DNA from: Steroidobacteraceae bacterium | Lineage (GTDB): Bacteria; Pseudomonadota; Gammaproteobacteria; Steroidobacterales; Steroidobacteraceae | Direction of reading: 5' to 3' | Assembly (NCBI GenBank): GCA_036267975.1 | Contig: DATAVA010000026.1 | Coordinates: 8,482 to 72,481, forward strand | Length of the DNA: 64,000 nucleotides | Part shown: positions 37,946-53,318 of the stretch, piece after piece | Layout: every line of letters begins with the position of its first letter | Position numbering within the stretch: position 1 is the first letter of the stretch | Notes under the pieces: generated by a model | The model's database searches: none | Seen by the model: the letters and a program-made list of their open reading frames with translations, nothing else | Told to the model about the DNA's origin: nothing | Position numbers and translations under genes: made by a program

Positions 37946-37988
37946 ACATTTCAATGAGGAACCTGCAAGGCACGTGCCTGTCGTGCGA

Positions 37989-38017
37989 ATTATCACGCGC
38001 CTTTCTGCAAATGGCTA
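37989..38017 (-). promoter_or_regulatory. Candidate sigma70 promoter for the riboswitch transcript
   Basis: Minus strand TAGCCA-N17-GATAAT, about 45 nt upstream of the aptamer. Weak -35. Confidence 0.25.
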
Positions 38018-38177
38018 AAAAAGCGGCAGTTGCGGGGATGTGTTGACGCCGCGCCAGACTGCGTTGGCAAAATGGCAGGCCGATTTTGCGCCTGCCATGC
38101 ACCAGCGGCGTGCGACGCCCTAAACTATCGCCCCGCTTAGTAACGATTGTTGCGCCCACACGGGGTATGACCCACGC

Positions 38178-38996
38178 ATGAAACACGGCTTTGCAGCTTT
38201 GGCCGACATGCCCGGCATGTGGAACCGGTCGCTGATCATTCAGGCTGACGGCGTACGTGACTCCAGCAGCCGGGTGCGGTGGCTGCAGGCGAGGACTTTA
38301 TTCGTGGACCTGCGACAAAGCGCTGCCCTGCCGGATTTCCCGCAGCTGCGCTGCCTGAACGATCTGACCTTCGCCGACTGCACGCAGCTGGCGCGCCAGC
38401 AAGGATTTGCCGGCCGTCTTCGCTTCGACGGCGATTGCTTCGAGTGGCTGCGCCTGATTGACTTCCAGCCCGCGAGCCTCAGCGCCGATGCCGGGCGCTT
38501 ACGGTGGGAAAATCAGACCCTCATCGAGGCCGGCCGGGACGTACCTTATGTTGAGCACTGGATGCGTGATCCGACGGTGGTAACGCGCCCGCTGGCCGCG
38601 CTGCGGCTGCGTGATGTCGACGCCGGTCTCGCCGGCCTTGCAGTACAGGTGGGAGCCGTGTTCATGTTTGCGCGCGATCGGCACAGATCGTTGCCGGCAG
38701 GCGCATCGCTGAATGACTGCATCGGGGCCGCCACATCCCTGGCTGATGCACGTACGATGCTGGACTGTGAGATTACGCTAGGATCAGCCGCAATCGGTGT
38801 GGGCGCTGCTGATGGCAGTGGCAGCGTGATTCTTGCGTCGACCCACCCGTGGCGGGTGAGCGAGCGCCTGCGGCTCGCATGCACAGGCTCGACCGTCACC
38901 ACGATGGATATCGACCCGACGGGCAGGTCCATGACGCGTCGCTGGGAAATAGTGGAATCCGAAGGCGATCCACAGGCGGTGTGGCCGAGCCGCTAG
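38178..38996 (+). CDS. Hypothetical protein
   Basis: 272-aa ORF with coding-like codon usage, no signal peptide and no motif I recognise. Confidence 0.55.
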   Translation: MKHGFAALADMPGMWNRSLIIQADGVRDSSSRVRWLQARTLFVDLRQSAALPDFPQLRCLNDLTFADCTQLARQQGFAGRLRFDGDCFEWLRLIDFQPASLSADAGRLRWENQTLIEAGRDVPYVEHWMRDPTVVTRPLAALRLRDVDAGLAGLAVQVGAVFMFARDRHRSLPAGASLNDCIGAATSLADARTMLDCEITLGSAAIGVGAADGSGSVILASTHPWRVSERLRLACTGSTVTTMDIDPTGRSMTRRWEIVESEGDPQAVWPSR

Positions 38997-39008
38997 GGCG
39001 GATTACGG

Positions 39009-40427
39009 CTATACGAGCTCGATGCCGGCACGCCGGAGTCGTGCGGCGATAGGCGCCAGGGGAGCCTCGTACTGTCTCCATAAGTCGACTGAAGTTGAGT
39101 AGATCGGGCCTCGGACCTGTGCGGCGCTCGCGGTGGTGCTGGCTGCGCCGCGCTGTCCGATATCGAGGCAGTCATCGCTCCATCCAAGACCACAGTGATC
39201 AAACACCCGTCGTGCTTCAGTCGCCGGCGATGTCACCAGCGTGTCATACGACACATCGAGGATCGCCTGCGGAATCACGCGGCGCCAGTGGGTCATGAGC
39301 CGGTGGTAGCCAATGTAGTAGTCGGCGATCTCACCGAGGTCGTACGAAAATGGATAGCCTTGGTTAAAGAGTGTTTTGAAAACGGCGTAGCAGGTCGCCA
39401 TCGGATGCCGCTGCATGTGCAGGATGCGCGCATTCGGCAGCGCAGCGTGGATGATTCCACCATAGAGATAGTTCAGCGGCATCTTGTCTATAAAGTAGGG
39501 TGTATGGCCGGTGCGTGGCCGTGTCCGCTCGAGATACGAAGCACCGAGGCTCGTGAAGTCGATCGTCGTGCTGGCAGCGACCATGTCGCGTCGCGAAATC
39601 TGATGTGTTCCGATCCTTTTGCGGATGGCATCAACAAGGACCGCCGCGAAATCGATCAACTCGCCTGCGGCGTATACCCCGGCGTTGCCGCTCATGATCC
39701 GCTCCAGGAGCGTGGAGCCGGTTCGCGGCATTCCGAGAATGAATATGGGCTCGGTGCTGCGACACCCGCGGGTATCCAGCCGCGCTTCGGGAAATGACTG
39801 AACTATCCAGCTGACAGAGTCGACATCATGTCGAATATCATAGTGTAGGTTACGGCGCCGAATGGCCGCGCCGGCCGCGAGGTGCTCCCATGATACGGCA
39901 TGTTGACCGATATCTTCGTACTCCTTGGCAAGCGCATACCGGATCGGCACCTCCCCGGTTGGCGCGCCAAAGCCCACGCGCAATCGTTTCAGCAGCGCTT
40001 CTATATGATTGCGGCCGGGCGTCTGCCTGCGCAGTTCCGAGCGGTTGTACCAGGCCTCGACATCCGCCGGATCGGTCGCGATGACACGGTCGTAATCGCT
40101 TTCCGCATCATCAGTCCTGCCGACAAAACGACGCACGGTGGCCCGATTGAACAAGTAGCGCGGATTGTCAGCATCGCGAACCAGCGCTTGATCGTACGCG
40201 GCGCATGCCTCGTGATATCGCTCCAGGCGGCCCAGGAACTCGCCCAGCACAGCAAAGTCATTGGCTTGCCTTGCCGCGGTGCGCGCGGCGTCGATAGCCT
40301 CGTTCAGCTCCTGCCAGCGCCGGGCCGCGCGCAGCGCGGTCGCAAGACGAATCCATGCCTGCGTGCTGCGCTCCCCCTGGGCAATCGCGCCTTGCGCCGC
40401 AGCGACCGCATCGAAGGCTGCCCCCAT
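39009..40427 (-). CDS. TPR-repeat sulfotransferase-family protein
   Basis: 472 aa. N-terminal TPR-like helices, then PAPS-binding-type ILGMPRTGSTLLERIMS and a later RHPMATCYA block. Starts 3 nt after the ABC ATPase stop. Confidence 0.8.
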   Translation of the reverse strand: MGAAFDAVAAAQGAIAQGERSTQAWIRLATALRAARRWQELNEAIDAARTAARQANDFAVLGEFLGRLERYHEACAAYDQALVRDADNPRYLFNRATVRRFVGRTDDAESDYDRVIATDPADVEAWYNRSELRRQTPGRNHIEALLKRLRVGFGAPTGEVPIRYALAKEYEDIGQHAVSWEHLAAGAAIRRRNLHYDIRHDVDSVSWIVQSFPEARLDTRGCRSTEPIFILGMPRTGSTLLERIMSGNAGVYAAGELIDFAAVLVDAIRKRIGTHQISRRDMVAASTTIDFTSLGASYLERTRPRTGHTPYFIDKMPLNYLYGGIIHAALPNARILHMQRHPMATCYAVFKTLFNQGYPFSYDLGEIADYYIGYHRLMTHWRRVIPQAILDVSYDTLVTSPATEARRVFDHCGLGWSDDCLDIGQRGAASTTASAAQVRGPIYSTSVDLWRQYEAPLAPIAARLRRAGIELV

Positions 40428-40430
40428 CGT

Positions 40431-41270
40431 TCAGTCCTGGGCCGAGGTGCGCGATAGCTTCTGCAGCAAATCCAGGTCGGTCTTCATGCCCGAGGTGGAT
40501 CGAATGCGCTCCAGAAGCGCCAGCTTCAGTTCCAGGAACACGGTTTGATGTTTCATCGGTTGCGATCGCTCGAGCGCCAGGGGCACCGGATACACCGTAT
40601 CCACGCGCCCGGGACGCGGTGCCATCAGGACCACGCGTCGGCCCAGATAGATTGCCTCCTCAACATCGTGCGTGACAAAGATTACCGTGCACAATTCCAG
40701 CTGCGAGACATGCAGGATCAGGTCATGCATGACCTCACGGGTCTGCGCATCCAATGCGCCGAAGGGCTCATCCATCAGCAGGATCCGCGGCCGGCTCATC
40801 AGGGCACGCGCGATGGCGACGCGTTGCTGCATGCCGCCCGAAAGCTGGTTCGGGTAGGCATCCGCCACTGCGGTCAGTCCCATGACGGCCAGCAGTGCTT
40901 CAGCGCGACCGGCTGCGACCTCGACATCGGCGCTGGTGCGATCGCGAGTGTGGGCAGCGAGCTGCCGTGTGAACTTGATGTTGCCAATCACCGTCAGCCA
41001 CGGGTACAAGCTGTAGTTTTGAAAGACCATGGCGCGATCCACGTCGGGACCGCTGATCGGCGCCCCGTCCACGGTGATTTCGCCGGCGCTCTGAGTTTCG
41101 ATTCCCGCAATCGTACGCAGCAGCGTCGACTTGCCGCATCCCGATGCCCCCACCAATGTGATGAACTCACCCTCTTCGACGCTGAGGTTGATGTCCTGCA
41201 GCGCTGTCAGCGCACGGGGACCGTTCCCGAAGGTCTTCCAGACTCCCTTGCACTGCACTGCAGTCGACAT
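40431..41270 (-). CDS. ABC transporter ATP-binding protein, NitT/TauT family
   Basis: ATG 41270. Walker [10 protein letters not shown], signature [15 protein letters not shown], Walker [13 protein letters not shown]. Confidence 0.9.
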
Positions 41271-41272
41271 GC

Positions 41273-42079
41273 TCAGCTTCGCAGATAAAGCCACGGGAAG
41301 GCCTTGCGGTGCATCAGGCGGAAAGTCTGATCCATGGCCAGTCCGATCAGGCCGATGAGAATGATGCCGCAGAAGATCTTGTCGGTTTGCAGGAAGCGCT
41401 GCGCCTTGATGATCGCGTACCCAAGGCCGGAGTTGGCCGCGACCAGTTCGGCAACGACCAGGTAGGTCCAGGCCCAACCCATCGTGATGCGCAGCGTATC
41501 CACCAGTCCCGGCTTCACTGACGGAATAATCACCAGCTCGATGATCTCCAGGCGCGAGGCGCCCATGGTCTGTGCCGCCTCGATCTGCGCCATCGGCACA
41601 CGCCTGACATCCTCCGCGACCATCAGCACCATCTGGAAGAAGGTACCGATGAAGATGATGCCAATCTTGGCCCCCTCATCGATGCCGATCCAGAGCATCA
41701 CCAGCGGGATGAAGGCCACGGCCGGCATGTAGCGGATGAAATCGGTGAGCGGCTCAAGCAACGCCTGCACGGAACGATAGGTACCAATGAACAGTCCCAA
41801 CGGCAGTGCGATCAGCGCGGACAGCGCCCAGCCTGCGACGACACGCATGGTGCTGATCGCGATATCGGCCAGCAACTCATCGTTGGTGTACCAGGTGCCG
41901 ACGCGTTTCAGCACGCTCAAGGGTCCGGGCAGGAACACCGGATTGACGATGCCGGTGGCGGAGAGGGTGGACCAGCCAATCAAAGGCAGCAGCAGTCCGA
42001 CGGTCGCCAGTATCCAGTAGCGCTGCTGCGTGATGGTGCCCCTGATGGTCCAGAATCCCATGGCACTTGCGCTCCTCAC
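41273..42079 (-). CDS. ABC transporter permease, NitT/TauT family
   Basis: 268 aa, 6 TMS, EAA-like loop AAQTMGASRLEIIELVIIPSVKP. Its start overlaps the SBP stop. Confidence 0.9.
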   Translation of the reverse strand: MRSASAMGFWTIRGTITQQRYWILATVGLLLPLIGWSTLSATGIVNPVFLPGPLSVLKRVGTWYTNDELLADIAISTMRVVAGWALSALIALPLGLFIGTYRSVQALLEPLTDFIRYMPAVAFIPLVMLWIGIDEGAKIGIIFIGTFFQMVLMVAEDVRRVPMAQIEAAQTMGASRLEIIELVIIPSVKPGLVDTLRITMGWAWTYLVVAELVAANSGLGYAIIKAQRFLQTDKIFCGIILIGLIGLAMDQTFRLMHRKAFPWLYLRS

Positions 42080-43056
42080 CGCTTCAATGCAGCGGACAGA
42101 ATCGAGCCGTCCACACCTTTGGCCGGGTCCGGCTTGCCGTCGATCAGTCGATTCGCCAGCAGGAAGGCGGCAATCTGCGGCGCCACGGTGACCAGACTCG
42201 AGGAGCTCGCGGGATTGAACCCATCAAGATTTGCCGCGGCGTCGAAGAAGCGTGTGCCTGGAAGGAAGACCTTGTAGTCGGCCGGATTCATGCCCACCAC
42301 CTTGGACATAATTTTTACCGCGGCGTCGGGATTGTTCTTGATGAAGTTCACGGTGTCTAACCATGCACGTGTCATGCCGATCAGGTCCTGGCGCTTGTTC
42401 CGGATCGCCGACTCCTGTGCGACCAGCAGGTCCGGAATCAGGCCAGCCATGTCACGCGAGGTGAACAGCGCACGTCCCTTGCCGGATTTCTCGATCTGGC
42501 TGATCCAGGGATTCCACACGACCGCGACCTCGACGCGCCCGCTGATGAATGCTGCCGCGGCGTCCCCGGCCGCCAGGTTGACCACGGTGACATCGCGAGG
42601 GGTGAGTCCGTGGCGGGCAAGCGCGGTGTAGAGCACGAAGTGCGACACGCTGAACTGCTCCAGTGCAACTTTCCTGCCCTTCAAGTCCGCAAAGCTGTGG
42701 ATCTTGGGACTGACCATCAGCGCGTCATTACCGAAGGAGTTGTCGTTGATCAGGACGGCCTTGAGCGGCAGCCCCTTCTGCAGCGGCCCGAGCGTGTCGG
42801 ACCAGGTCTGGCTGTTGGCATCCAACTGCCCGGTGGACAGCGCCGCGATTGAATCGCTGTAATTGGCGAACCAGATCAGCTTCACATCGGCGCCGTATTT
42901 CTTGAAATATCCCTGGTTCTCGGCGACGTACCAGGCAACCCAACCGGTCCAATCGGAGACGCCGACCTTGATTTCGGCGGTGGCTGGCGTGGTAAATGCG
43001 GTGAGCAGTGCGACTGCGGCGATGGCGGCCAAGGTGAGGGGAAATCGGCTCTTCAT
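42076..43056 (-). CDS. ABC substrate-binding protein (NMT1/THI5-like, urea-carboxylase-region type)
   Basis: 326 aa with a signal peptide ending ATAEIKVGVSDWTGW. Overlaps the allophanate hydrolase stop (ATGA). Confidence 0.85.
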   Translation of the reverse strand: MKSRFPLTLAAIAAVALLTAFTTPATAEIKVGVSDWTGWVAWYVAENQGYFKKYGADVKLIWFANYSDSIAALSTGQLDANSQTWSDTLGPLQKGLPLKAVLINDNSFGNDALMVSPKIHSFADLKGRKVALEQFSVSHFVLYTALARHGLTPRDVTVVNLAAGDAAAAFISGRVEVAVVWNPWISQIEKSGKGRALFTSRDMAGLIPDLLVAQESAIRNKRQDLIGMTRAWLDTVNFIKNNPDAAVKIMSKVVGMNPADYKVFLPGTRFFDAAANLDGFNPASSSSLVTVAPQIAAFLLANRLIDGKPDPAKGVDGSILSAALKR

Positions 43057-44888
43057 GAGGATGACTCCGGACTTGCGGGCTGAGTTGGGGGGGTTGATGA
43101 CATGGACGCGACATACGCGCGCCAGCCGCCCATCGAGGTGATGTCGCGAGCGCCCTCAATGGCGCGCGGCTCGGCGACGAATCCTTTGACGATGCTCCCG
43201 TCCGCGAGGACGATGCTGCCGATGGCCAGTGGAGCCGGGATTTCGGCGACAAAGCTGCCGAATGCAGCGAGGTCCAGGTCATAGACCTCGACGGCGATGG
43301 CGCTGCCGCCGCCGCGCGTGCCGGTGTGAATGAGGGCCGGTTTCGGTGGTGTCGTGTTGGCCATCGCGTAGAGGCGGTAGGCGGGTGCCGTATGGGTGGC
43401 GCCGACCAGTCGCGCGTGTCGCGAACTGAGCTGCCAGTGCAGCGGCATGCCGGACAGGTGCGCACCGACCACGGCCACCTGCACGCTCAGGGCGCGCGGC
43501 GTCAGATCCAGCGGCGGATTCACAATTGCCGGTGAACTGTTCAGATAGCGTTGCGCAAGATTCAGCAGCGCGCGATCCATGAATGCCTTGCCGACCAGGG
43601 TGATGCCGAAGCCGGTGTGATTGGCGCGGAATCCGGCGGGCACGGCCACGGCGCTCAGATCCATCAGGTTCACGAAATTCGTATACAGCCCGAGGTTGGC
43701 ATTCAGCGTGACGGGCTCGGCCAGCAGTTCACTCACGCGATAGATGGTCGGGGCGGTGGGTAGTACCAGCACATCAATGACGGACCAGAGTGTTTCGGCC
43801 TGGCGCATGAGTGCCTGCAGTTCATGTTGTCCGCGGAATACCTGTACACCGGTAGTCGCTGCGCCCGCGGCAATGATTGCGCGCACTACCGGATGAATCG
43901 CCCCGGATCGCGTGCGCAGGAAATCCTCGATGGCCGCGGTGCGTTCGGCGACCCAGGGTCCGCAGTACAGCAGCTGTGCTGCATTCAACAGCGCTGCGAT
44001 ATCCACTTCCACCGCGGTGCCACCGGCGGCCACCACTCGGGTGAGTGCTTCGCGGTATAGGCGCGAGGATGATTCGTCGCCAAAGAACTGCAGTTGTTCA
44101 GGTCGCGGCACGCCGAAATGGAAGGCGGGCCCCAGCATGGGCGGCGCCAGCGGATGACGTGCGTACGGGTCCGCGGCGTCAAAGCCTGCGACGACTTCAT
44201 CGACCATCGCCGCATCGTCCACATTTGCAGCGAGTACCGTGATGCAGTCTAAGGAGCGACACGCCGGCACCAGCCCCTGAGTGCTCCAGCGACCCCGGGT
44301 CGGCTTAAATCCGATCAGGCCATTGAATGCCGCCGGAACCCGCCCTGAACCGGCGGTGTCGGTGCCCAGGGCGAAGACCACCAGGCCGGCAGCGACGGCG
44401 ACGGCGGAGCCGGAACTGGATCCGCCGCTGATGAATTCGCGGTTGAATACGCAGCGCGGTGCGCCGTACGGGCTGCGCGTGCCCGCCAGGCCCGTTGCGA
44501 ACTGGTCCAGATTGGTCTTGCCAAGACACACCGCGCCGGCCGCCAGCAGGCGTTGCACCGTGGTGCTCGAGCGCTGCGCAGCATAGGCGAAGCCCGGGCA
44601 GGCCGCGCTGGTCGGCATGCCCTCGACATCGATATTGTCCTTTACCGCAAACGGCACCCCCGCCAGCGACAGTCGCTCTCCGCTGGCCACGCGGGCATCC
44701 ACCTCATGCGCCTGCTGCAGCACATCGCTGTCGCCGGCACGGTGGATAAAGATTTCCGGCTGAACGGGTGCGTACGCGGCGACGCGCAGCAGAGTCTGCG
44801 CCGCGATGTCGACAGCCTTGACGCGGCCGGCGTTGACGTCAGCGCTGATTTGAGCCACTCCCCACTGCAGCCGCGCATCGCCGGTCAT
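43053..44888 (-). CDS. atzF: Allophanate hydrolase
   Basis: Start refined to ATG 44888, overlapping the carboxylase TGA. Amidase signature GGSSSGSAVAVAAG plus a C-terminal AH extension. 611 aa. Confidence 0.9.
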   Translation of the reverse strand: MTGDARLQWGVAQISADVNAGRVKAVDIAAQTLLRVAAYAPVQPEIFIHRAGDSDVLQQAHEVDARVASGERLSLAGVPFAVKDNIDVEGMPTSAACPGFAYAAQRSSTTVQRLLAAGAVCLGKTNLDQFATGLAGTRSPYGAPRCVFNREFISGGSSSGSAVAVAAGLVVFALGTDTAGSGRVPAAFNGLIGFKPTRGRWSTQGLVPACRSLDCITVLAANVDDAAMVDEVVAGFDAADPYARHPLAPPMLGPAFHFGVPRPEQLQFFGDESSSRLYREALTRVVAAGGTAVEVDIAALLNAAQLLYCGPWVAERTAAIEDFLRTRSGAIHPVVRAIIAAGAATTGVQVFRGQHELQALMRQAETLWSVIDVLVLPTAPTIYRVSELLAEPVTLNANLGLYTNFVNLMDLSAVAVPAGFRANHTGFGITLVGKAFMDRALLNLAQRYLNSSPAIVNPPLDLTPRALSVQVAVVGAHLSGMPLHWQLSSRHARLVGATHTAPAYRLYAMANTTPPKPALIHTGTRGGGSAIAVEVYDLDLAAFGSFVAEIPAPLAIGSIVLADGSIVKGFVAEPRAIEGARDITSMGGWRAYVASMSSTPPTQPASPESSS

Positions 44889-47800
44889 ACCTCGTGCCCT
44901 TGCGTTTCCAGCGCGATGATGGCCGCGCCCGGATTGATGGCCTGTCGCGGTTGCACATACACCGCCCGCACAATGCCGGCCTGCGGGGCCGGCACATCGC
45001 ATTCCATCTTCATCGCTTCGATGACAGCAATTACCGTGCCGCGTGCAACCCGGTCCCCGGGCCGCACGTTGACCTTCCAGACATTGCCACCCAATGGGGC
45101 TTCGAGTACCTCGCTGCCGGCTGGGATCACGGAGGTGATCGCAGCCACATCGGCAGGTTCCTGCAGCAGTTTCTCGACCCGGGAGAACTCCTTGTCGCGC
45201 ACCCAGGCTTCGCGCTCGGCCTCGAATGCGGCCTGTCGCTGCGTCTGGAAAGTCTCGATGGCCGGTGCGTTCGCCGCCAGGAAAAGGCGATAGGCGGCGA
45301 GGCTGAAGGTCGCCGATTCGATACGGACATCGCGGCGGCCGAGGGGAAAGTCGCGGCGCCATTCCGTCAGCTCCGCATGGCTGACGGGAAAGAAACGGAT
45401 CTGGTCGAAGAACCGCAGCAGCCACGGCTTATCTTCGGTGAAGGCCTTGGTCTGTTGCCAGGTGTTCCACATCTGCACGGTGCGCCCGAAGAGCTGGTAG
45501 CCCCCGGGGCCCTCCATCCCGTAGATGCACAGGTAGGCGCCGCCGATTCCCACCACGTTCGGTGGCGTCCAGGTGCGCGCCGGGTTGTACTTGGTCGTCA
45601 CCAGCCGATGACGCGGGTCGAGAGGGGTGGCCACGGGCGCGCCGAGGTAAACATCGCCCAGTCCCATGACCAGGTAGCGTGCGTCAAAGACGATGTCGCG
45701 CACGGCATTGATCGACGGCAGTCCATTTATGCGGCGGATGAATTCGATGTTATCCGGGCACCAAGGCGCGTCACTGCGGACGCTGGCCATATACTTTTCG
45801 ATGGTTGCGTAAATCGCCGGGTCGCCCCAGGACAATGGCAGATGAATGACCCGTGAGGGGATGCTGAACTCAGTGAGGTCACCGATCCGATCCTCGGCAT
45901 CCGCGAGCGCGGCAAGCAAGGCGTCCTGAGTCAGCACGCGGCTGTCGAAGTGCACCTGCAAGGAGCGCACGCCGGGGGTGATGTCGATGACACCGGGCAG
46001 GGCACGACGCTGCAGCTCGAGCATCAGGGCATGGATCCGAATTCGCAGTGTCAGATCCAACATCAAGGGGCCGTACTCCACCAGGATGTGGCGGTCGCCC
46101 TGACGCCGATACACCACCTGGGGGCGCTGGCTGCGCGCCGCAATAGTGTCCAGGACGGGACTGTGCTGCGGCTTTCCACGCGCTGCGCTGGATGGGAGTG
46201 GCGGCGGCGGATCGCCGAACAGCGCTTCCATCGAATCCTCCGCGGCGCGTGCCTGCGTGTCGCTGACGATCTCGAAGCTGAGGCTGTCACCCGGGGCCAG
46301 CTGCCCCACCTTCCACAAATCGGCCTGGATTACGACCAGAGGGCATACGAATCCGCCCAGCGAGGGGCCGTCAGGTCCCAGGATGATGGGCATGTCGCCG
46401 GTGAAGTCGATCGTCCCGATGGCGTAGGCGTTGTCGTGAATGTTCGAGGGATGCAGTCCCGCCTCGCCACCATCGCGCCGCGCCCAGCGCGGGCGCGGCC
46501 CGATCAGGCGCACGCCGGTGCGGCTGGAGTTGTAGTGCACCTTCCAAGGCACACTGCTCAGCATGTCGATATCTTCGGGGGCGAAGAAGTCCGGTGCCCC
46601 GTGCGGACCGTACAATACCCGCAGCACCCACGCATGCGTGAGCCGCGGCGGGGAAATCGCAAGGGCATTGGCGGTGGTGGCAACGGGGCGCGGCTCACAC
46701 AGCCGCAGCACGTCACCGGCAACGAGCGTGCGACCGGCGTGTCCGCCAAATCGGCCCAGCGTAAAGGTGGAGCGGCTGCCGAGGTACACGGGCACATCGA
46801 TGCCTCCCGCAAGCAGCAGGTACGCGCGCATGCCGGCGCCACGGATGCGGCCCAGCTTCAGGGTCTGGCCGGCGCGAATCCGGACTGGCCGGAAGGCATC
46901 GATGGCGGCACCGTCGACGGATGCTTCGAGGGCGGCCCCCGTCACGCAAATGCGTGTGTCACGCCGGAACAGCAGCACCGGACCGTGCAACGTGATCTCC
47001 AGTCCCGCCGCATCCGGTGGATTGCCCAGCAGCTGGTTTCCGATGCGAAAGCTCAACGCATCCATCGGACCGCTGGGCGGTACGCCGACGTCCCAGTAAC
47101 CGCGGCGTCCAGGATGGTCCTGCACCGTCGTCGCAAGGCCGCCGCTTTGCACGCGTATCGTCTGCGGCTGGAACTGGATCGACTGTGCCATCGCGGTGAA
47201 GAGCTGACCGCTGACGAAGGCCTCGCTGCGCGCGGCCTGCCGCAGCCATTCGAGATTGGTCTCCAGTCCCTGCAAAGCAGTATGGTCCAGCGCCGTTTGC
47301 ATGGCACGCACGGCGCTGTCCCGGTCGCGCGCGGTGACAATGAGCTTGGCCAGCAGCGGGTCGTAGCAGGCGCTGACCTCGCTGCCGTCGGTCACCCAGG
47401 TCTCCACCCGCACATTCGGTGCGAACTTCACTTGGGACAGAACGCCGCTGCAGGGGCGGAAATCCTGGTCTGGGTCCTCGGCATAAATACGTGCCTGGAT
47501 CGAGGCGCCAACGCTGGCATCCTTCCAGGTGTCCAGAAAATCTAGCTCGCCCGCGGCGCCGCGAACCATCCATTCAACGAGGTCCACGCCGGTGACCTGC
47601 TCCGTGACTCCGTGCTCGACTTGCAGTCGGGTATTCACCTCGAGGAAGAAGAACTGATCGCGCTCGGGGTCGTACAGGAACTCCACGGTTCCTGCTGAGA
47701 GATAGTGCGCCGCACGACCCAGACGCAGGGCCGCATCGCGCAGGCTGGCGCGCGTGGCAGCGGGAAGATGCGGCGCAGGCGCTTCCTCCATCAGCTTCTG

Positions 47801-48502
47801 GTTGCGGCGCTGCAAGGAGCAGTCACGCTCGCCCAGCGCGACGACCCGACCGGCCCCGTCGCCGAAAATCTGCACTTCGATATGGCGCGCGCGCGGTACA
47901 AAGCGCTCCAGATAGACTCCGCCATTCGCAAAATTGCTGCCCGCGAGACGCTCGATGGAAGCGAATGCCTCGCGCACTGTGGCGGCGTTTTCGCAGGTAC
48001 GCATGCCGATACCCCCGCCGCCGGCGGTGGCCTTGAGCATGACCGGATAGCCCACCCGCTCAGCCGCATGAACCGCGGTATGCTCATCGCCAAGCAGGTC
48101 ACTGCCCGCCATGAGTGGCAGGCCCGCCTGCTGCGCGATCTGGCGAGCGGTGTGCTTGAGGCCAAAGGCACGGATATTCTCCGGCGTAGGTCCGATGAAA
48201 GTGAGGCCAGCCTGCGCGCAGCGTTCGGCGAACTGCGCGTTCTCGCTCAGAAAGCCATAACCCGGGTGAATGGCAGTGGCGCCGGTGCTGCGGGCGGCCG
48301 CGATGATGGCATCCATGTGCAGATAGCTCTGTGCGGCAGGTGCAGGCCCGATACGCACGGCCGCGTCGGCCTCGCGAACATGCAGCGAGCCTAAGTCCGC
48401 GTCCGAGTACACCGCGACCGAATCTATCCCCAAGCGGCGCAGGGTGCGAATGATGCGGCACGCAATCGCGCCACGATTGGCGATCAGGACCTTGTTGAAC
48501 AT
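44885..48502 (-). CDS. uca: Urea carboxylase-type biotin enzyme (likely guanidine carboxylase)
   Basis: 1205 aa. Biotin carboxylase N-terminus MFNKVLIANRGAIACRIIRT, KipI/KipA-like carboxyltransferase middle region, biotinyl motif EAMKME. Confidence 0.92.
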   Translation of the reverse strand: MFNKVLIANRGAIACRIIRTLRRLGIDSVAVYSDADLGSLHVREADAAVRIGPAPAAQSYLHMDAIIAAARSTGATAIHPGYGFLSENAQFAERCAQAGLTFIGPTPENIRAFGLKHTARQIAQQAGLPLMAGSDLLGDEHTAVHAAERVGYPVMLKATAGGGGIGMRTCENAATVREAFASIERLAGSNFANGGVYLERFVPRARHIEVQIFGDGAGRVVALGERDCSLQRRNQKLMEEAPAPHLPAATRASLRDAALRLGRAAHYLSAGTVEFLYDPERDQFFFLEVNTRLQVEHGVTEQVTGVDLVEWMVRGAAGELDFLDTWKDASVGASIQARIYAEDPDQDFRPCSGVLSQVKFAPNVRVETWVTDGSEVSACYDPLLAKLIVTARDRDSAVRAMQTALDHTALQGLETNLEWLRQAARSEAFVSGQLFTAMAQSIQFQPQTIRVQSGGLATTVQDHPGRRGYWDVGVPPSGPMDALSFRIGNQLLGNPPDAAGLEITLHGPVLLFRRDTRICVTGAALEASVDGAAIDAFRPVRIRAGQTLKLGRIRGAGMRAYLLLAGGIDVPVYLGSRSTFTLGRFGGHAGRTLVAGDVLRLCEPRPVATTANALAISPPRLTHAWVLRVLYGPHGAPDFFAPEDIDMLSSVPWKVHYNSSRTGVRLIGPRPRWARRDGGEAGLHPSNIHDNAYAIGTIDFTGDMPIILGPDGPSLGGFVCPLVVIQADLWKVGQLAPGDSLSFEIVSDTQARAAEDSMEALFGDPPPPLPSSAARGKPQHSPVLDTIAARSQRPQVVYRRQGDRHILVEYGPLMLDLTLRIRIHALMLELQRRALPGVIDITPGVRSLQVHFDSRVLTQDALLAALADAEDRIGDLTEFSIPSRVIHLPLSWGDPAIYATIEKYMASVRSDAPWCPDNIEFIRRINGLPSINAVRDIVFDARYLVMGLGDVYLGAPVATPLDPRHRLVTTKYNPARTWTPPNVVGIGGAYLCIYGMEGPGGYQLFGRTVQMWNTWQQTKAFTEDKPWLLRFFDQIRFFPVSHAELTEWRRDFPLGRRDVRIESATFSLAAYRLFLAANAPAIETFQTQRQAAFEAEREAWVRDKEFSRVEKLLQEPADVAAITSVIPAGSEVLEAPLGGNVWKVNVRPGDRVARGTVIAVIEAMKMECDVPAPQAGIVRAVYVQPRQAINPGAAIIALETQGHEV

Positions 48503-49131
48503 CAGATATGTCCGGCGATCACCATGCGCAGGGCCGTGGGATTAAAACCATTGCAGGGGTTGTTGATCTGGGGGCAGTTGGAAACCACGGCCGTCAGATC
48601 CATCTGCGCCCTCAGGTCCACGTGCAGCCCCGGGGCGGATATGCCGTCGACGATACCCAAGGTCCCGTCGGCTTCGATTGGTACATTCATGAACCAGTTG
48701 ATGTTGGACACCATGTCGCGCTTGCCCCGCCCGTAGCGCAGATTGGCGGCGAGAAAATTTTCGACACATGCGTGCTGCGACTGGGTATGGAAGCCGTAAC
48801 GCAAGGTATTGCTCTCGCAGCTGCACGCTCCACCGATGGTGTCGTGATGGTCGACATCGGTGCCTGCGATCAGCGCCATGGGATTACCTTCATTCGAATA
48901 CAGCATCGAGCCTTGGCGCAGGTACACATTGTGCTGCGCCGCGATGGTCTCCTGTGCGCTGTAGCGCTCGGCGTCATCCGCTGTCGCATACATCAGGAAG
49001 TCGGCGGATTGATTGCCCTGCAGATCAATGATGCGCAGGGTTTGCCCTTTGCGCACCCGATGTGACCACGGCGCCCGCGATGGCACGATCTGATCCAGGA
49101 TGATCGGCCCCAATCCGGCCAGCGCATTCAT
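48502..49131 (-). CDS. Urea-carboxylase-associated DUF1989 protein 2 (carboxyguanidine deiminase subunit type)
   Basis: ATG 49131 lies behind GAGGTG. 209 aa, paralogous to 49139..49960. Its stop overlaps the carboxylase ATG by 1 nt. Confidence 0.85.
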   Translation of the reverse strand: MNALAGLGPIILDQIVPSRAPWSHRVRKGQTLRIIDLQGNQSADFLMYATADDAERYSAQETIAAQHNVYLRQGSMLYSNEGNPMALIAGTDVDHHDTIGGACSCESNTLRYGFHTQSQHACVENFLAANLRYGRGKRDMVSNINWFMNVPIEADGTLGIVDGISAPGLHVDLRAQMDLTAVVSNCPQINNPCNGFNPTALRMVIAGHI

Positions 49132-49138
49132 AATCACC

Positions 49139-49960
49139 TCACCGGGCAAAATAATCTTCAACGTTCAGAAAAGCCCGTAAGCCCTCCGGGGTCGCGTTGC
49201 GAAGCGGATCCTCCGCCGGCGTCGGCTCACCCCGCCAGGCGCTCATCCGGACCGGCGTCACCGTGTAATCGGCGCGCGCATCGAGTCGATGGGGACAGTT
49301 CGCCATCACGACAAAGACATTCATTTCGGCCCGAAGCGTCAGCGTGCGGCCCGGCGCGCAAGGGCCCGAGGCAAACTCGGTGGAGCCATCCGCGGTAATC
49401 CGAACGGCCTTGAACCAGTTGATGCAGGGATGAATGTCCCTGCGCCCCAGCCCGAATTTGCTGACCGCGAGGGCGAAGCGGTCGCGGGCGTTGGGATGGG
49501 CGCCCCAGCTATCCCCATCTCCGTACCTTGCGGCATTGGAGTGCACCGTCGAGGCACCGCAAAAGCAATCGTGGGTGCCGGCGCCATCTTCAATGACACT
49601 CATCAGCACGCGGCCCATATCCGAGAGCAGCAAGTGGCCCGCTCCCAGGTAGGCGTTCCACTGGACTTTGATGGTGTCCGCAACGTTCAAGCGTTCAACC
49701 GGGCGCTCCGCGTTGAAAACGAGCATGGAGACGCAGGCGTCGCCGAGCACGTCCTGCAGCTGCAGGCGTGCCCCGCGCCAAAGTTCCTTGCTGGCGTAGC
49801 CGCCCGCGCCCAGTGTCGTTTCCCACAGCATGCTGCTCGCGGGCACTCCCGGTGGCCGCGATGCTGCGACACCGGCTGGCAAGGTGGGCATAGCCGCTAC
49901 CCGAATGTCGCCCATGGCCCGGGCGTGCGCCCGGGCGCTGTGAGGGTCGGCCGTGCTCAC
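49139..49960 (-). CDS. Urea-carboxylase-associated DUF1989 protein 1 (carboxyguanidine deiminase subunit type)
   Basis: 273-aa ORF. Its GTG start overlaps the TGA of the NikR-like gene. Blocks such as NCPH/INWF are shared with 48502..49131. Confidence 0.85.
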   Translation of the reverse strand: MSTADPHSARAHARAMGDIRVAAMPTLPAGVAASRPPGVPASSMLWETTLGAGGYASKELWRGARLQLQDVLGDACVSMLVFNAERPVERLNVADTIKVQWNAYLGAGHLLLSDMGRVLMSVIEDGAGTHDCFCGASTVHSNAARYGDGDSWGAHPNARDRFALAVSKFGLGRRDIHPCINWFKAVRITADGSTEFASGPCAPGRTLTLRAEMNVFVVMANCPHRLDARADYTVTPVRMSAWRGEPTPAEDPLRNATPEGLRAFLNVEDYFAR

Positions 49961-50445
49961 CGTGCACCTCGAATAGAACGTGGCGCGGGACTTGCGGGCT
50001 GCTCGGCGCCATGCGAATGCAGTGGTGGCAGCAACGCGGTGGTGGTGACCAGTTTGATTTGCTGTACGCCGCGTACCGTGCGCAGGGCATCACATAGCGA
50101 ATGCAGGCGCACCGCCGGACCTTGCACCAGCAGCACCTCCAGTGACTGGTCGTCCTCGAGCAGGACGTGCTGCGAGGAGATCACTTCCTTGACGTAGGCG
50201 GTTTGGGTGTTGGCTAGCGCATGCCGCACCCGGCCGCTCTCGGCCTTGTAGATCAAAGTGAGGGTGCCGGCGAGTACCGCGTCATCGCGACTCTCGCTGT
50301 GCTCAGCCAATTCGTGACGAATCAGCTCAGCGATCATCTGGGAGCGGCTTGGGAGGGCGCGCTCGGCGACCATGTCATCCAGCTGCGTGAGCAGTTCAGC
50401 CGGCAGGCTGATACTCAAACGTGCAAGTTGCGGCAGTACGTCCAC
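49957..50445 (-). CDS. NikR-fold ribbon-helix-helix regulator (CopG/NikR family)
   Basis: 162 aa. RHH LSISLPAELLTQLDDMVAERALPSRSQMIAELIR followed by an ACT-like C-terminal domain that aligns to NikR_C. Confidence 0.8.
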   Translation of the reverse strand: MDVLPQLARLSISLPAELLTQLDDMVAERALPSRSQMIAELIRHELAEHSESRDDAVLAGTLTLIYKAESGRVRHALANTQTAYVKEVISSQHVLLEDDQSLEVLLVQGPAVRLHSLCDALRTVRGVQQIKLVTTTALLPPLHSHGAEQPASPAPRSIRGAR

Positions 50446-50459
50446 TAGGGCAGCCCCGT

Positions 50460-50489
50460 AGTATTACTAAAATTGAGTTTAGTAATACT
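50460..50489. promoter_or_regulatory. Perfect 12-6-12 inverted repeat, NikR-operator-like (GTATTA-N16-TAATAC)
   Basis: AGTATTACTAAA-ATTGAG-TTTAGTAATACT. An AT-rich island in GC-rich DNA, 15 to 44 bp upstream of the regulator start codon. Confidence 0.7.
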
Positions 50490-50609
50490 CCAGGAGGGTG
50501 CGCCCCTGTCAAGCGAGTGCGCGAAGATGGTGCAGGTTAGCCGCAGGCGCGCCACGCAAGTGCGCCTGCGTCCCGATGCGCCGCGCGTGAGCGGCGCCGC
50601 TTGCGGGTA

Positions 50610-51245
50610 TTAGGGAGTAATGCTTAGGAACACCACTTCGGCGGTGCCGTTGGCGCCCGGCTTGGCGGCTCCGTTGACCTTTACGCCCGGCCTCACCATG
50701 GCGGGAGAGCCCGCGTCGATCTTGGTAATGTCCGTGTCCGCACCGACGTGGATGGCCTGCTCACCACCCCTGTAGGTCACCTTGATGGTGGCGCTGGCGC
50801 TGCCGGAGTTGGCGGTCACCTGGCCATTGGTCATGGTGGCGACATTGCCGTTGGTCATGGTGGTGTTCGGGGGCCCCATCGGATTGTGCCCTTCACCCAT
50901 GCCACGCATGGATTCAGGGAAAATATGGCATTCCGTCGCATGCAGCAGGTTGTCGGCGCGCTTGACGGCCGTGCAGCCGACAAACTTGCCCGGACCCAGG
51001 TCGGCCACCGTGCCTTTGCCGCTCACCATGATGTTCGGCTTGTCAGGAAAGGTAAGCTTCACATCGCCCCCCTGCTGGGAATGAACCACGAAGCTGTTGC
51101 CGCTGGCACTGGCGACGGTACCGCCGAAACGGATCAGGCCGGCGAAGGGATTCGGCGGCGCGGAGGAGGCCTGCGCGAGCACCGGCCCGGTTGCGGCCGC
51201 ATACAGCAGCAGGCCACAGGCGGTCATCAGGGTTCTGAGGGTCAT
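50610..51245 (-). CDS. Hypothetical secreted protein with Met/His-rich segment
   Basis: 211 aa with a signal peptide ending VLAQA. Central CTAVKRADNLLHATECHIFPESMRGMGEGHNPMG and a TMTNGNVATMTNG repeat. Confidence 0.65.
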   Translation of the reverse strand: MTLRTLMTACGLLLYAAATGPVLAQASSAPPNPFAGLIRFGGTVASASGNSFVVHSQQGGDVKLTFPDKPNIMVSGKGTVADLGPGKFVGCTAVKRADNLLHATECHIFPESMRGMGEGHNPMGPPNTTMTNGNVATMTNGQVTANSGSASATIKVTYRGGEQAIHVGADTDITKIDAGSPAMVRPGVKVNGAAKPGANGTAEVVFLSITP

Positions 51246-51307
51246 CGTCGTTCTCCTTAAGGCGCTGCAATGCGCACCGCAATTCGATGGTGTATATCTG
51301 CAGACCG

Positions 51308-52756
51308 ATGCGACAGGTATTTCATTACATCAAGGGTTGCCGGTTGCCGGGCCATGGCACCCGCCTGGGCGAAGTGTTCGACCCGGCCAGGGGGCAGGCC
51401 CAGGCGCAGGTGCCGCTGGGAGGAATTGCCGAGCTCAACGCCGCGGCCGCGGCGGCGCTCGCCGCGCAGCCGGGCTGGGCGGCGCAGAGCGCCCATCGGC
51501 GCTCGCAGGTGCTGTTCCGCTTCAAGGCCCTGATTGAAGAGCATATGGAAACCCTCGCGAAGCTGCTCTCCAGTGAGCACGGCAAGCTGCTGGCCGATGC
51601 CCGGGGTGACATCCAGCGTGGACTGGAGGTCATTGATTTTGTCTGTGGCGCCCCGCAACTGCTCAAAGGCGAGTTCTCGGCGGGTGCCGGGCCGGGGATC
51701 GACGTATGGTCCATGCGCCAGCCGCTGGGCGTGGTTGCCGGCATCACGCCCTTCAATTTTCCCGCCATGATTCCGTTGTGGATGCTGGGGCCGGCGATTG
51801 CCGCCGGCAATGCCTTCATCCTCAAGCCCTCGGAGCGCGTCCCTTCGGTGGTCGTGGAACTGGCGGCGCTGCTGAGCGAGGCCGGGGCTCCGGAGGGCAT
51901 CCTGAACGTCGTACACGGCGACCGCGAAATGGTCGAGGCGATTCTCGGACATGCGGCCGTCAAAGCGGTGAGTTTTGTCGGCTCATCCGATGTGGCCCAG
52001 CATGTGTACGCGACGGCGGCCGCCGCCGGCAAGCGCGTCCAGGCCATGGGCGGTGCCAAGAACCATGGCCTGGTACTGCCGGATGCCGACCTCGATGCGG
52101 CCGTTGCCGCCATTGTCGGGGCCGCGTTTGGTTCGGCCGGCGAGCGCTGCATGGCGTTGCCGGTGGTGATCCCCATCGGGGAGAGCACCGCCGTGGCGCT
52201 GCGTCAGCGCCTGCTCGTTGCGATCAAGCAATTGCGCGTCGGCGCCGCCGATGATCCGCTTGCAGACTATGGTCCGCTGATCACCGCCGCGCACAAACAG
52301 CGCGTCGAGCGTCATATCGCCATGGGCATTGATGAAGGCGCCGAGCTGGTCATCGATGGTCGCGCTGTGAGCGTCGCGGGGCACGAGCGCGGCTTTTTTC
52401 TGGGCCCCACCTTTTTTGATCGCGTGCGCGCCGACATGCGCAGCTACCAGGAAGAGATATTCGGTCCGGTGCTGCAGATGCTGCGGGTCGATTCCCTGGA
52501 GCAGGGCATCGCCCTCGCCTCAGCGCATCCGTATGGCAACGGTGTGGTGGTGTTCACCCGCTCGGGGGAGGCTGCGCGCTGCGTCGCCGAACAGGCCGAG
52601 GCCGGCATGGTCGGCATCAATGTCCCGATCCCGGTGCCCGTGGCCTACCATGGCTTCGGTGGCTGGAAGCGCTCAGCCTTCGGCGATCTCAATCAATACG
52701 GCACCGACAGTATCCGTTTCTTTACCCGCACCAAGATCGTCACGCAACGGTGGTGA
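51308..52756 (+). CDS. mmsA: CoA-acylating methylmalonate-semialdehyde dehydrogenase
   Basis: ITPFNFPAMIPLWM, ILKPSERVP, catalytic GERCMAL. The start could be ATG 51308 or ATG 51287. Confidence 0.9.
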   Translation: MRQVFHYIKGCRLPGHGTRLGEVFDPARGQAQAQVPLGGIAELNAAAAAALAAQPGWAAQSAHRRSQVLFRFKALIEEHMETLAKLLSSEHGKLLADARGDIQRGLEVIDFVCGAPQLLKGEFSAGAGPGIDVWSMRQPLGVVAGITPFNFPAMIPLWMLGPAIAAGNAFILKPSERVPSVVVELAALLSEAGAPEGILNVVHGDREMVEAILGHAAVKAVSFVGSSDVAQHVYATAAAAGKRVQAMGGAKNHGLVLPDADLDAAVAAIVGAAFGSAGERCMALPVVIPIGESTAVALRQRLLVAIKQLRVGAADDPLADYGPLITAAHKQRVERHIAMGIDEGAELVIDGRAVSVAGHERGFFLGPTFFDRVRADMRSYQEEIFGPVLQMLRVDSLEQGIALASAHPYGNGVVVFTRSGEAARCVAEQAEAGMVGINVPIPVPVAYHGFGGWKRSAFGDLNQYGTDSIRFFTRTKIVTQRW

Positions 52757-52760
52757 GGGC

Positions 52761-53318
52761 TCACCACATCAGATCGTCGGGAACGACGAAATCCTTGTAG
52801 GCCTCATCCACGACTTCGATCGTGCTGCTGATCTGACCTTGCGCGACGACGGCGCGCGCGTCGCGTTCGCGGATCTTCTCCGCGATATTCGGGGGTACCA
52901 GTTCGTAGCGTCCTTCGCAGCGCACCAGCATTACGTCCCCGCGCGTGATGCGTTCGCGTAGCGCGGCATCGGCGCGGATGCGCCGCACCTTGCCGCCGTC
53001 GATGAAGTTGTAGGTCTCCTCCACGTCCGGTCGCGCAATGCGGTTTTCGCTCACCAGTTCGCGGATCTGGGCGTACAGTGCCTTGCGCTGTGCCTTTTCC
53101 TGTTGTTTGCGGTTCAGCTCCTGGTCGCGGGCCGCCTTGGCGTCGGCCTGCTTTTTGGCGGCAATTTCCGCGGCCGTCGGGCCGTTGCGCTGTTCGCGGG
53201 GCTGGTGCTTCTGGCCCTGATACTGCTTGCGCTGTGCTTGCCGCTCGGCTTCCTTGACCTGCTGCTCATTGACCAGCCCGGCCTGCAACAACTGGTCACG
53301 TAGTGAAAGTGAACTCAT
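52761..53318 (-). CDS. DUF2058-family protein
   Basis: 185 aa. MSSLSLRDQLLQAGLV, a highly charged K/E/Q/R-rich middle section, and a C-terminal VPDDLMW. Confidence 0.8.
   Translation of the reverse strand: MSSLSLRDQLLQAGLVNEQQVKEAERQAQRKQYQGQKHQPREQRNGPTAAEIAAKKQADAKAARDQELNRKQQEKAQRKALYAQIRELVSENRIARPDVEETYNFIDGGKVRRIRADAALRERITRGDVMLVRCEGRYELVPPNIAEKIRERDARAVVAQGQISSTIEVVDEAYKDFVVPDDLMW

What the first reader, a model, noticed from the sequence alone, without database searches (positions are those of the whole stretch)
50460..50489. Perfect 12-6-12 palindrome with NikR-operator geometry directly upstream of the regulator gene
- AGTATTACTAAA ATTGAG TTTAGTAATACT is a flawless inverted repeat.
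- It forms an AT-rich island in otherwise GC-rich DNA, 15 bp from the regulator start codon.
- Its outer hexamers, GTATTA-N16-TAATAC, reproduce the spacing and most bases of the E. coli nik operator GTATGA-N16-TCATAC.
- The position fits an autoregulated operator overlapping the promoter of the whole operon.
Basis: seen in the sequence. Interest (0 to 1): 0.6.

Follow-up and report, generated by a model that had tools for sequence, protein, structure and literature searches.

The report
Operator of a nickel-less NikR-type repressor
The palindrome is almost certainly the DNA docking site of the adjacent NikR-like regulator, which has lost NikR's nickel-binding residues and sits at the head of a guanidine-breakdown operon, so it gives a direct handle for testing what may be a protein (not RNA) switch for guanidine use.

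Summary
AGTATTACTAAA-ATTGAG-TTTAGTAATACT lies at 50460-50489, is 80% A+T in a 64% G+C genome, and occurs once in the genome.

Only the outer part is conserved: GTATTAC-N14-GTAATAC (50461-50488). The same box lies upstream of the orthologous regulator in 76 of 80 related loci from Steroidobacteraceae, Caulobacter/Phenylobacterium and Verrucomicrobiota. In every locus with enough downstream DNA the regulator heads the same operon: two DUF1989 genes, a carboxylase and allophanate hydrolase.

Among 61 related genomes the box occurs exactly once in exactly the nine that carry the regulator, and in none of the other 52.

Protein and box co-vary. Ser in the DNA-reading strand goes with GTATTA; Thr goes with GTATGA, the E. 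coli nik box.

In this lineage a conserved TTGACA lies 18 nt upstream, so the box covers the -10 region and the transcription start. That is repressor geometry and implies autoregulation.

The "NikR" label needs correcting. The His3Cys nickel site is absent in all 76 family members, and the protein falls below every NCBIfam NikR cut-off. Relatives without the regulator place a guanidine-I riboswitch upstream of the operon instead.

The effector is unknown. Guanidine or a pathway intermediate is my leading guess.

The parts
50460..50489 (.). Perfect 12-6-12 palindrome as reported. The conserved operator core is 50461-50488 (GTATTAC-N14-GTAATAC).
   Evidence: sequence; positions 2-7 (TATTAC) and 22-27 (GTAATA) are >=97% conserved in 60 distinct proteobacterial contexts, while the flanks carry <0.7 bit.
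50461..50467 (.). Half-site GTATTAC, proximal to the regulator's start codon. On the gene strand it reads GTAATAC.
50482..50488 (.). Half-site GTAATAC on the plus strand. On the gene strand it reads GTATTAC, is distal to the gene, and overlaps the putative -10.
50507..50512 (-). Putative -35 hexamer TTGACA, 18 nt upstream of the operator's first G on the gene strand.
   Evidence: TTGAC(A/G) lies 18-21 nt upstream of the box in all 12 Steroidobacteraceae/gammaproteobacterial loci. The consensus scanner did not call a promoter, so this part is inferred.
50485..50490 (-). Putative weak -10 (GAGTAT; A at position 2, T at position 6), 16 nt from the -35 and overlapping the operator's distal half-site.
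   Evidence: Read ((C/G)AGTAT is conserved in the lineage). Inferred, with no transcript-start data.
49957..50445 (-). NikR-family regulator gene (RHH + NikR_C domains, 162 aa, GTG start) lacking the His3Cys nickel site.
   Evidence: Pfam; PDB 2bj1, E = 2.6e-22; ligand columns; below NCBIfam NikR cut-offs.
49139..49960 (-). First DUF1989 gene (TIGR03425, UAAP1; carboxyguanidine-deiminase-type subunit). Overlaps the regulator's stop by 4 nt.
48502..49161 (-). Second DUF1989 gene (TIGR03424, UAAP2).
44885..48502 (-). Biotin carboxylase of the urea/guanidine carboxylase type (TIGR02712), 1205 aa.
43053..44900 (-). Allophanate hydrolase (the start is approximate).
40431..43056 (-). NitT/TauT-type ABC importer: binding protein 42076-43056, permease 41273-42079, ATPase 40431-about 41261. 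The genes overlap or abut, so they are probably on the same transcript.

Best explanation
The palindrome is the single operator of the adjacent NikR-fold regulator. A tetramer places its two ribbon-helix-helix domains in the major groove of GTATTAC and GTAATAC, two helical turns apart, as E. coli NikR does on GTATGA-N16-TCATAC. In this lineage the box lies 18 nt downstream of a conserved TTGACA, so it covers the -10 region and the transcription start. Bound protein should therefore shut off the promoter of the regulator's own gene and of the tightly packed genes behind it: two DUF1989 genes, a carboxylase, allophanate hydrolase and an ABC importer. That amounts to negative autoregulation of a guanidine-assimilation operon. 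The protein cannot sense nickel through the classical His3Cys site, because that site is gone. It takes the position that a guanidine-I riboswitch holds in relatives. I infer that a small molecule linked to the pathway, most likely guanidine or an intermediate, releases it from the box. Shown in silico: the site, its conservation, its exclusive co-occurrence with the regulator, and protein-DNA co-variation. Inferred: repression, the promoter elements, and the effector.
For: (1) The site is real, unique and unlikely by chance. (2) Footprint: a box matching GTATKA-N16-TMATAC at >=10 of 12 positions lies upstream of the regulator in 76 of 80 loci from three lineages. The core is >=97% invariant while the centre and flanks drift. 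(3) Phyletic test: TATTAC-N14-GTAATA occurs once in each of the 9 of 61 related genomes that have the regulator, always next to it, and in 0 of the other 52. The reversed control pattern hits 4 genomes. (4) Recognition co-variation: Ser at the E. coli Thr5 position goes with T at half-site base 5 (62 of 62), and Thr goes with G (14 of 14). Canonical Thr-type NikRs of relatives have GTATGA-type boxes upstream. H. pylori NikR (RFSVS strand) binds TRTTA/TAWTA (PMC5385501). (5) Synteny: the regulator is followed by DUF1989 x2, carboxylase and allophanate hydrolase in every locus with enough DNA. (6) Promoter overlap: TTGAC(A/G) lies 18-21 nt upstream in all 12 gammaproteobacterial loci. In Phenylobacterium a TTGACG sits in the centre of the box. 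(7) Not a nickel sensor of the known type: H76, H89 and C95 are never His/His/Cys in 76 sequences, and the protein is below all NCBIfam NikR cut-offs. (8) Guanidine link: same-genus genome G010 lacks the regulator and has guanidine-I riboswitch, TonB receptor, then the first DUF1989 gene 13 nt later. Fourteen isolate genomes with the regulator have no guanidine-I riboswitch anywhere. A guanidine-I riboswitch lies at 37837-37952 in the window.
Against: No binding, expression or transcript-start data exist. The consensus promoter scanner called nothing here, and the proposed -10 matches only 3 of 6 positions. The Ser/Thr-to-T/G correlation rests on one switch inside the subfamily, plus outside examples. 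In several same-genus genomes a guanidine riboswitch and TonB receptor already sit just upstream of the regulator, so a second guanidine sensor would be partly redundant and the effector could be something else. Classical NikR binds DNA when liganded (co-repressor logic), which does not fit substrate induction. Five residues are invariant in the subfamily (H49, E87, E97, D99, H143) and could form a new metal site. Rubritalea (L080) has the regulator but no recognisable box.
Confidence: 0.8

Rival explanations
1. The box is the regulator's operator, but the ligand is a co-repressor signalling nitrogen sufficiency (for example an amino acid or another nitrogen-rich metabolite bound by the ACT-like domain). 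It is not guanidine. The riboswitch on the receptor gene supplies the guanidine signal, and the protein adds a nitrogen-status veto.
For: Classical NikR logic is ligand-activated DNA binding (PMC11672702). The C-terminal domain has an ACT-like fold (Pfam NikR_C). In same-genus genomes a guanidine-I riboswitch and receptor lie directly upstream of the regulator, which makes a second guanidine sensor partly redundant.
Against: Caulobacter, Phenylobacterium and Verrucomicrobia carry the regulator but no guanidine-I riboswitch anywhere. In those genomes nothing else visible would make the operon substrate-specific. There is no direct evidence for any ligand.
Confidence: 0.2
2. It is an ordinary nickel-dependent NikR operator. 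Nickel-loaded protein represses the nickel-free carboxylase route when nickel enzymes such as urease can work.
For: NikR geometry of the box. Pfam NikR_C match. The genome has a urease and this is its only NikR_C protein. Invariant His/Glu/Asp residues could form a different metal site.
Against: H76, H89 and C95 are replaced in all 76 subfamily members, and H87 as well in 17 of them. E30 of the second site is Gln in 75 of 76. The protein is below all five NCBIfam NikR cut-offs. No nickel transporter or nickel enzyme lies in any of the 80 loci examined.
Confidence: 0.07
3. The palindrome acts as a nucleic-acid hairpin: a 5'-leader structure, or the terminator of the upstream 211-aa gene. It is not a protein site.
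For: The RNA would fold at -10.6 kcal/mol (z = -6.8). Orthologous elements fold at -3.5 to -15.7 kcal/mol.
Against: The outer six base pairs are invariant in sequence rather than merely in pairing, and 20 of 68 sites are non-complementary at positions 8/21. The loops are 10-12 nt in most orthologues. No T-run follows, and the scanner calls no terminator. The upstream gene differs between loci (TonB receptor, tRNA, others) while the box stays. In Phenylobacterium the -35-like TTGACG lies inside the element, so the element would not be transcribed. There is no Rfam match.
Confidence: 0.03
4. It is a chance palindrome, or the site of an unrelated DNA-binding protein.
For: A+T-rich intergenic DNA often contains short dyads, and 10-16 perfect 12-nt dyads are expected per genome by chance.
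Against: Conservation across three lineages, one-to-one co-occurrence with the regulator (9 of 9 against 0 of 52), and co-variation with its DNA-reading strand.
Confidence: 0.02

Closest known systems
E. coli nikABCDE operator bound by NikR (GTATGA-N16-TCATAC; PDB 2HZV)
   Same: A 28-bp dyad with 6-7-nt half-sites two helical turns apart, 5 of 6 bases identical per half-site, a position over the core promoter, and a regulator with RHH + NikR_C architecture. The Verrucomicrobial Thr-type members of this subfamily use exactly GTATGA-N16-TCATAC.
   Different: Base 5 of each half-site is T rather than G, matching Ser in place of Thr5. The regulator lacks the His3Cys nickel site. The target is a guanidine/urea-carboxylase operon headed by the regulator's own gene, not a nickel importer.
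Predicted delta-proteobacterial NikR box GTGTTAC-N13/14-GTAACAC, and the H. pylori NikR consensus TRTTA-N15-TAWTA
   Same: The same 7-N14-7 layout. One base per half-site differs from the delta-proteobacterial box (PMC545781). The pentamers TATTA/TAATA fit the H. pylori consensus (PMC5385501), and H. pylori NikR also has Ser at the corresponding strand position.
   Different: Those boxes belong to nickel-binding NikRs and to nickel transport or urease genes. H. pylori spacing is one base shorter.
Guanidine-I (ykkC) riboswitch control of guanidine carboxylase operons
   Same: It governs the same gene set. In same-genus genome G010 the riboswitch-led receptor gene runs directly into the same DUF1989/carboxylase genes (gap 13 nt), where this locus has the regulator and box.
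   Different: It is an RNA element acting on the transcript, with a proven guanidine ligand. Here a protein and DNA operator act at transcription initiation, and the ligand is unknown.

Membership tests
NikR-type operator | Dyad-symmetric box: two 6-7-nt half-sites related to GTATGA, separated so that their centres lie about two helical turns apart (28 bp in all). | tested here: met
   GTATTA-N16-TAATAC; conserved as GTATTAC-N14-GTAATAC. Published boxes.
NikR-type operator | Lies at the promoter of a gene or operon linked to a NikR-family regulator. | tested here: met
   It is 14 nt upstream of the regulator's start. It co-occurs one-to-one with the regulator in 61 genomes. The overlap with the -35/-10 elements is inferred from conserved TTGACA spacing.
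NikR-type operator | Bound by the NikR tetramer (footprint or gel shift). | not testable with these tools
   Needs purified protein. The indirect support is the Ser/Thr versus T/G co-variation.
NikR (nickel-responsive regulator) | N-terminal ribbon-helix-helix domain plus C-terminal NikR_C tetramerisation domain. | tested here: met
   RHH_1 27.1 bits, NikR_C 69.4 bits. P. horikoshii NikR, E = 2.6e-22 over residues 6-136.
NikR (nickel-responsive regulator) | Square-planar His3Cys site (E. coli H76', H87, H89, C95). | tested here: not met
   In the window protein these are T, H, L, S. Across 76 subfamily sequences H76 is never His, H89 is L or F, C95 is never Cys, and H87 is His in 59 and Asn in 17.
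NikR (nickel-responsive regulator) | Reaches the curated score of an NCBIfam NikR model. | tested here: not met
   99 against 105, 83.4 against 111, 69.4 against 119, 61.7 against 83, 57.1 against 175.
NikR (nickel-responsive regulator) | Controls nickel uptake or nickel enzymes. | tested here: not met
   The downstream genes are two DUF1989 genes, a carboxylase, allophanate hydrolase and a NitT/TauT importer, in all loci. The only box in the genome is this one.
Guanidine carboxylase pathway operon | Paired DUF1989 genes, a urea-carboxylase-type enzyme and allophanate hydrolase. | tested here: met
   TIGR03425, TIGR03424, TIGR02712, TIGR02713, all above cut-off.
Guanidine carboxylase pathway operon | Association with guanidine riboswitches. 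| tested here: met
   Relatives G010, G022, G035 and G036 have guanidine-I and/or guanidine-II riboswitches at the same genes. The window has a guanidine-I riboswitch at 37837-37952.
Guanidine carboxylase pathway operon | Enzyme preference for guanidine over urea. | not testable with these tools
   Needs an enzyme assay. Active-site residues were not examined here.
Dispersed repeat or intrinsic terminator | Many copies in the genome, or a G+C-rich stem followed by a T-run. | tested here: not met
   A single copy. No terminator called. The stem is 80% A+T.

The most novel reading that the evidence does not exclude
The box and its regulator form the first protein-based guanidine switch. This would be a NikR-fold tetramer whose nickel site has been remodelled (invariant H49, E87, E97, D99, H143), which binds guanidinium or carboxyguanidine and then leaves GTATTAC-N14-GTAATAC. 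It would replace the guanidine-I riboswitch in Caulobacteraceae, Steroidobacteraceae and Verrucomicrobia. A 2025 review states that riboswitches are the only known guanidine receptors apart from transporters and enzymes (PMC12186494). A 2024 review states that NikR proteins sense nickel only (PMC11672702).
Probability: 0.35. Interest if true: 0.8.

Novelty: new variant of a known kind. Interest (0 to 1): 0.62.

Why it matters
NikR is treated as a nickel-only sensor family (PMC11672702), and guanidine sensing in bacteria is known only from riboswitches (PMC12186494). This finding gives a precisely defined 28-bp operator, conserved across three bacterial lineages, for a NikR-fold protein that has lost the nickel site and travels with the guanidine-assimilation operon.

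That makes a simple experiment possible: a gel shift of this probe with and without guanidine, pathway intermediates, nickel and nitrogen metabolites. The experiment would show whether a protein guanidine sensor exists.

The Ser/Thr versus T/G pairing also offers a small, testable recognition rule for NikR-type ribbon-helix-helix domains. It helps to annotate 'NikR' genes that are not nickel regulators.

Tried and rejected
- Consensus promoter and terminator scan of 50300-50800: nothing called. The promoter is therefore inferred only from conserved spacing.
- Rfam on 38000-53000: no RNA family at the element.
- Hairpin folding of ten orthologous elements: all dyads fold to some degree, so folding alone does not discriminate. 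The hairpin reading was rejected on sequence invariance, long loops and promoter position.
- Sigma-54 reading of TGGCAG upstream of the box in some relatives: there is no TTGC element at the right distance (by eye).
- RNA evidence: the window is present only in soil DNA metagenomes. Caulobacter RNA-seq runs are held as contigs of up to 35 kb that span the locus and give no transcript start.
- Second site: the sequence CATTAC-N4-TAATAC at 50596-50612 overlaps the stop codon of the upstream gene and is not conserved in L016/L017. It was dismissed.
- Literature: searches for NikR with guanidine, urea carboxylase or Caulobacter, and for RHH/CopG with urea carboxylase, found nothing linking the two. 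PMC1317602 is not held.
- Structure prediction was not run. Sequence matches to solved NikRs already fix the fold, and a monomer model cannot show the inter-subunit ligand site.

Full report
**Observation.** One search shows AGTATTACTAAA-ATTGAG-TTTAGTAATACT at 50460-50489, as reported.
- It sits in the 164-bp gap between a 211-aa gene (50610-51245, minus strand) and a 162-aa gene (49957-50445, minus strand, GTG start).
- Fourteen nt separate it from that start codon.
- It is 80% A+T in a genome of 64.1% G+C.
- The genome holds 68 perfect inverted repeats with arms of at least 12 nt and gaps up to 20 nt. This one is the most A+T-rich.
- First-order Markov genomes of the same size give 10-16 such repeats.
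- An exact search, a 2-mismatch search and a weight-matrix scan each find only this copy in 4.13 Mb.

**Surroundings.** The 162-aa protein has a ribbon-helix-helix domain and a NikR_C domain. It matches P. horikoshii NikR over residues 6-136 (E = 2.6e-22).

Behind it, overlapping or abutting on the same strand, lie:
- two DUF1989 genes (TIGR03425 and TIGR03424);
- a 1205-aa urea-carboxylase-type enzyme (TIGR02712);
- allophanate hydrolase (TIGR02713);
- a NitT/TauT-type ABC importer.

Published work assigns this gene set to guanidine assimilation (cited in PMC12186494 and PMC12623156). No riboswitch lies in front of the operon. A guanidine-I riboswitch lies 12 kb away at 37837-37952.

**Comparative footprint.** Eighty related loci were fetched. 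They come from Steroidobacteraceae and other gammaproteobacterial MAGs, from Caulobacter and Phenylobacterium (75-83% identical regulator), and from Verrucomicrobiota (39-47%).
- In every locus with enough downstream DNA, the regulator is followed by the same two DUF1989 genes, carboxylase and hydrolase.
- In 76 of 80 loci, a box matching GTATKA-N16-TMATAC at 10 or more of 12 positions lies just upstream of the regulator.
- Over 60 distinct proteobacterial contexts, positions 2-7 (TATTAC) and 22-27 (GTAATA) are at least 97% conserved. The flanks carry under 0.7 bit, and the 12-nt centre is only A+T-rich.

So the conserved unit is GTATTAC-N14-GTAATAC (50461-50488). The inner five base pairs that make the window's palindrome perfect are local to this genome.

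**Phyletic test.** In 61 related genomes the pattern TATTAC-N14-GTAATA occurs exactly once in each of the nine genomes that encode the regulator, always beside it. It occurs in none of the other 52. The reversed control pattern hits four genomes.

**Protein-DNA co-variation.** In NikR the N-terminal beta-strands enter the major groove of each half-site (PMC4486848, PMC6332059). At the position of E. coli Thr5:

| Strand residue | Half-site | Count |
|---|---|---|
| Ser (RLSxSL, RISVSL) | T at base 5 of both half-sites (GTATTA) | 62 of 62 |
| Thr (RxTVSM) | G at base 5 (GTATGA, the E. coli box) | 14 of 14 |

- The tree shows this is one switch inside the subfamily, a Verrucomicrobial clade with 100/100 support. 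It counts as one event, not 76.
- Outside examples agree. E. coli NikR has RVTIT and binds GTATGA (PMC7055735).
- Canonical Thr-type NikRs of two relatives have GTATGA-N16-TCATAC 35 nt upstream and GTATGC-N16-TCATAT 49 nt upstream.
- H. pylori NikR has RFSVS and binds TRTTA/TAWTA (PMC5385501).
- One divergent Caulobacteraceae member has Gly at this position and a degenerate box.

**Promoter geometry (inferred).**
- In all 12 gammaproteobacterial loci, TTGAC(A/G) lies 18-21 nt upstream of the box. In the window it is at 50507-50512.
- This places a weak -10, (C/G)AGTAT, over the distal half-site, and the transcription start inside the box.
- In Phenylobacterium a TTGACG sits in the centre of the box, and the ATG follows GCCAAGATG. 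That fits a Caulobacter-type promoter with a leaderless message; this reading rests on my own knowledge of that consensus.
- Both layouts are repressor layouts.
- The consensus scanner called no promoter, and there are no transcript-start data.

**The regulator is not a classical NikR.** NikR's nickel ligands are H76', H87, H89 and C95 (PMC7055735).
- Here they are T, H, L and S. In C. vibrioides they are L, N, F and A. In Verrucomicrobia they are R, H, L and T or V.
- In 76 distinct subfamily sequences H76 is never His, H89 is always L or F, and C95 is never Cys. E30 of the second site is Gln in 75 of the 76.
- The protein scores below the curated cut-off of all five NCBIfam NikR models.
- It is the only NikR_C protein in the genome. 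A urease is present elsewhere.
- The subfamily has its own invariant residues (H49, E87, E97, D99, H143) and a conserved LLPPLHxHG tail.

**Link to guanidine.**
- Same-genus genome G010 lacks the regulator and the box. There, a guanidine-I riboswitch precedes a 917-aa TonB-type receptor gene that runs straight into the first DUF1989 gene, with a 13-nt gap.
- Other family members have guanidine-I and guanidine-II riboswitches at the same genes.
- Fourteen isolate genomes with the regulator (Caulobacter, Phenylobacterium, Rubritalea, Haloferula, Luteolibacter) have no guanidine-I riboswitch anywhere.
- So the regulator with its box and the riboswitch appear as alternatives at this operon.
- They also coexist in tandem in some same-genus genomes: riboswitch, receptor, box, regulator. 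That keeps a non-guanidine effector possible.

**Mechanism proposed.** A tetramer binds the box and occludes the promoter. This represses its own gene and the operon, and a pathway-related ligand relieves repression.
- Operator and repressor role: confidence about 0.8.
- Guanidine or an intermediate as inducer: about 0.35-0.45.
- A nitrogen-status co-repressor: about 0.2.
- Nickel or another metal at a remodelled site: under 0.1.

**Novelty.** I found no paper that links a NikR-family protein to urea or guanidine carboxylase genes.
- A 2024 review says NikR proteins sense nickel only.
- A 2025 review says guanidine-binding transcription factors remain to be found.
- The operator is a new variant of a known kind. 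Its value is that it makes the effector question directly testable.

Noticed in passing
window 37837-37952 (minus strand): A guanidine-I riboswitch (87.1 bits) lies 12 kb from the operon on the same strand. Earlier notes in this scan place it in front of a TonB-dependent receptor gene. In same-genus relatives this riboswitch-receptor unit lies directly upstream of the regulator or of the first DUF1989 gene.
   Followed up: partly
L111 (G010:C75:19000-27000): This same-genus genome has no regulator and no box. A guanidine-I riboswitch (5709-5824) is followed by a 917-aa ORF (2956-5709), then the first DUF1989 gene 13 nt later. It is a natural 'regulator-less' version of the operon.
   Followed up: yes
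L112, L113, L114 (genomes G036, G035, G022): A guanidine-II (mini-ykkC) riboswitch sits between the second DUF1989 gene and the carboxylase gene. A guanidine-I riboswitch on the opposite strand precedes the ABC binding-protein gene. An internal riboswitch inside the degradation operon is unusual.
   Followed up: no
tree; loci L019-L074: Caulobacter and Phenylobacterium regulators (75-83% identical to the window's) nest inside the gammaproteobacterial clade. This suggests the whole regulator-box-operon unit moved between Alpha- and Gammaproteobacteria.
   Followed up: partly
L094 (betaproteobacterial MAG), about 80-130 nt upstream of the match: Extra half-site copies flank a perfect box: GTATT-gcga-GTATTACGAAAGTTAATTTTCGTAATAC-c-GTAATAC. 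The regulator reading frame there looks frameshifted. This could be an assembly error or a decaying copy.
   Followed up: no
L063 (MAG labelled Actinomycetes): The regulator is 93% identical to the window's and has the same upstream gene and box, but it is interrupted after about 30 codons. The contig is probably misbinned Steroidobacteraceae DNA with a frameshift.
   Followed up: no
L080 (Rubritalea spongiae): The regulator and operon are present, but no NikR-type dyad is recognisable within 300 nt upstream. It is the one clear exception among complete loci.
   Followed up: partly
window 50596-50612: On the gene strand, CATTAC-TCCC-TAATAC overlaps the stop codon of the upstream 211-aa gene. 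It looks like half-sites but is not conserved in the closest relatives.
   Followed up: yes
window 39009-40427 (minus strand): A TPR-sulfotransferase gene starts 3 nt after the ABC ATPase gene, so it may be the last gene of the same transcript. It has no known role in the pathway.
   Followed up: no
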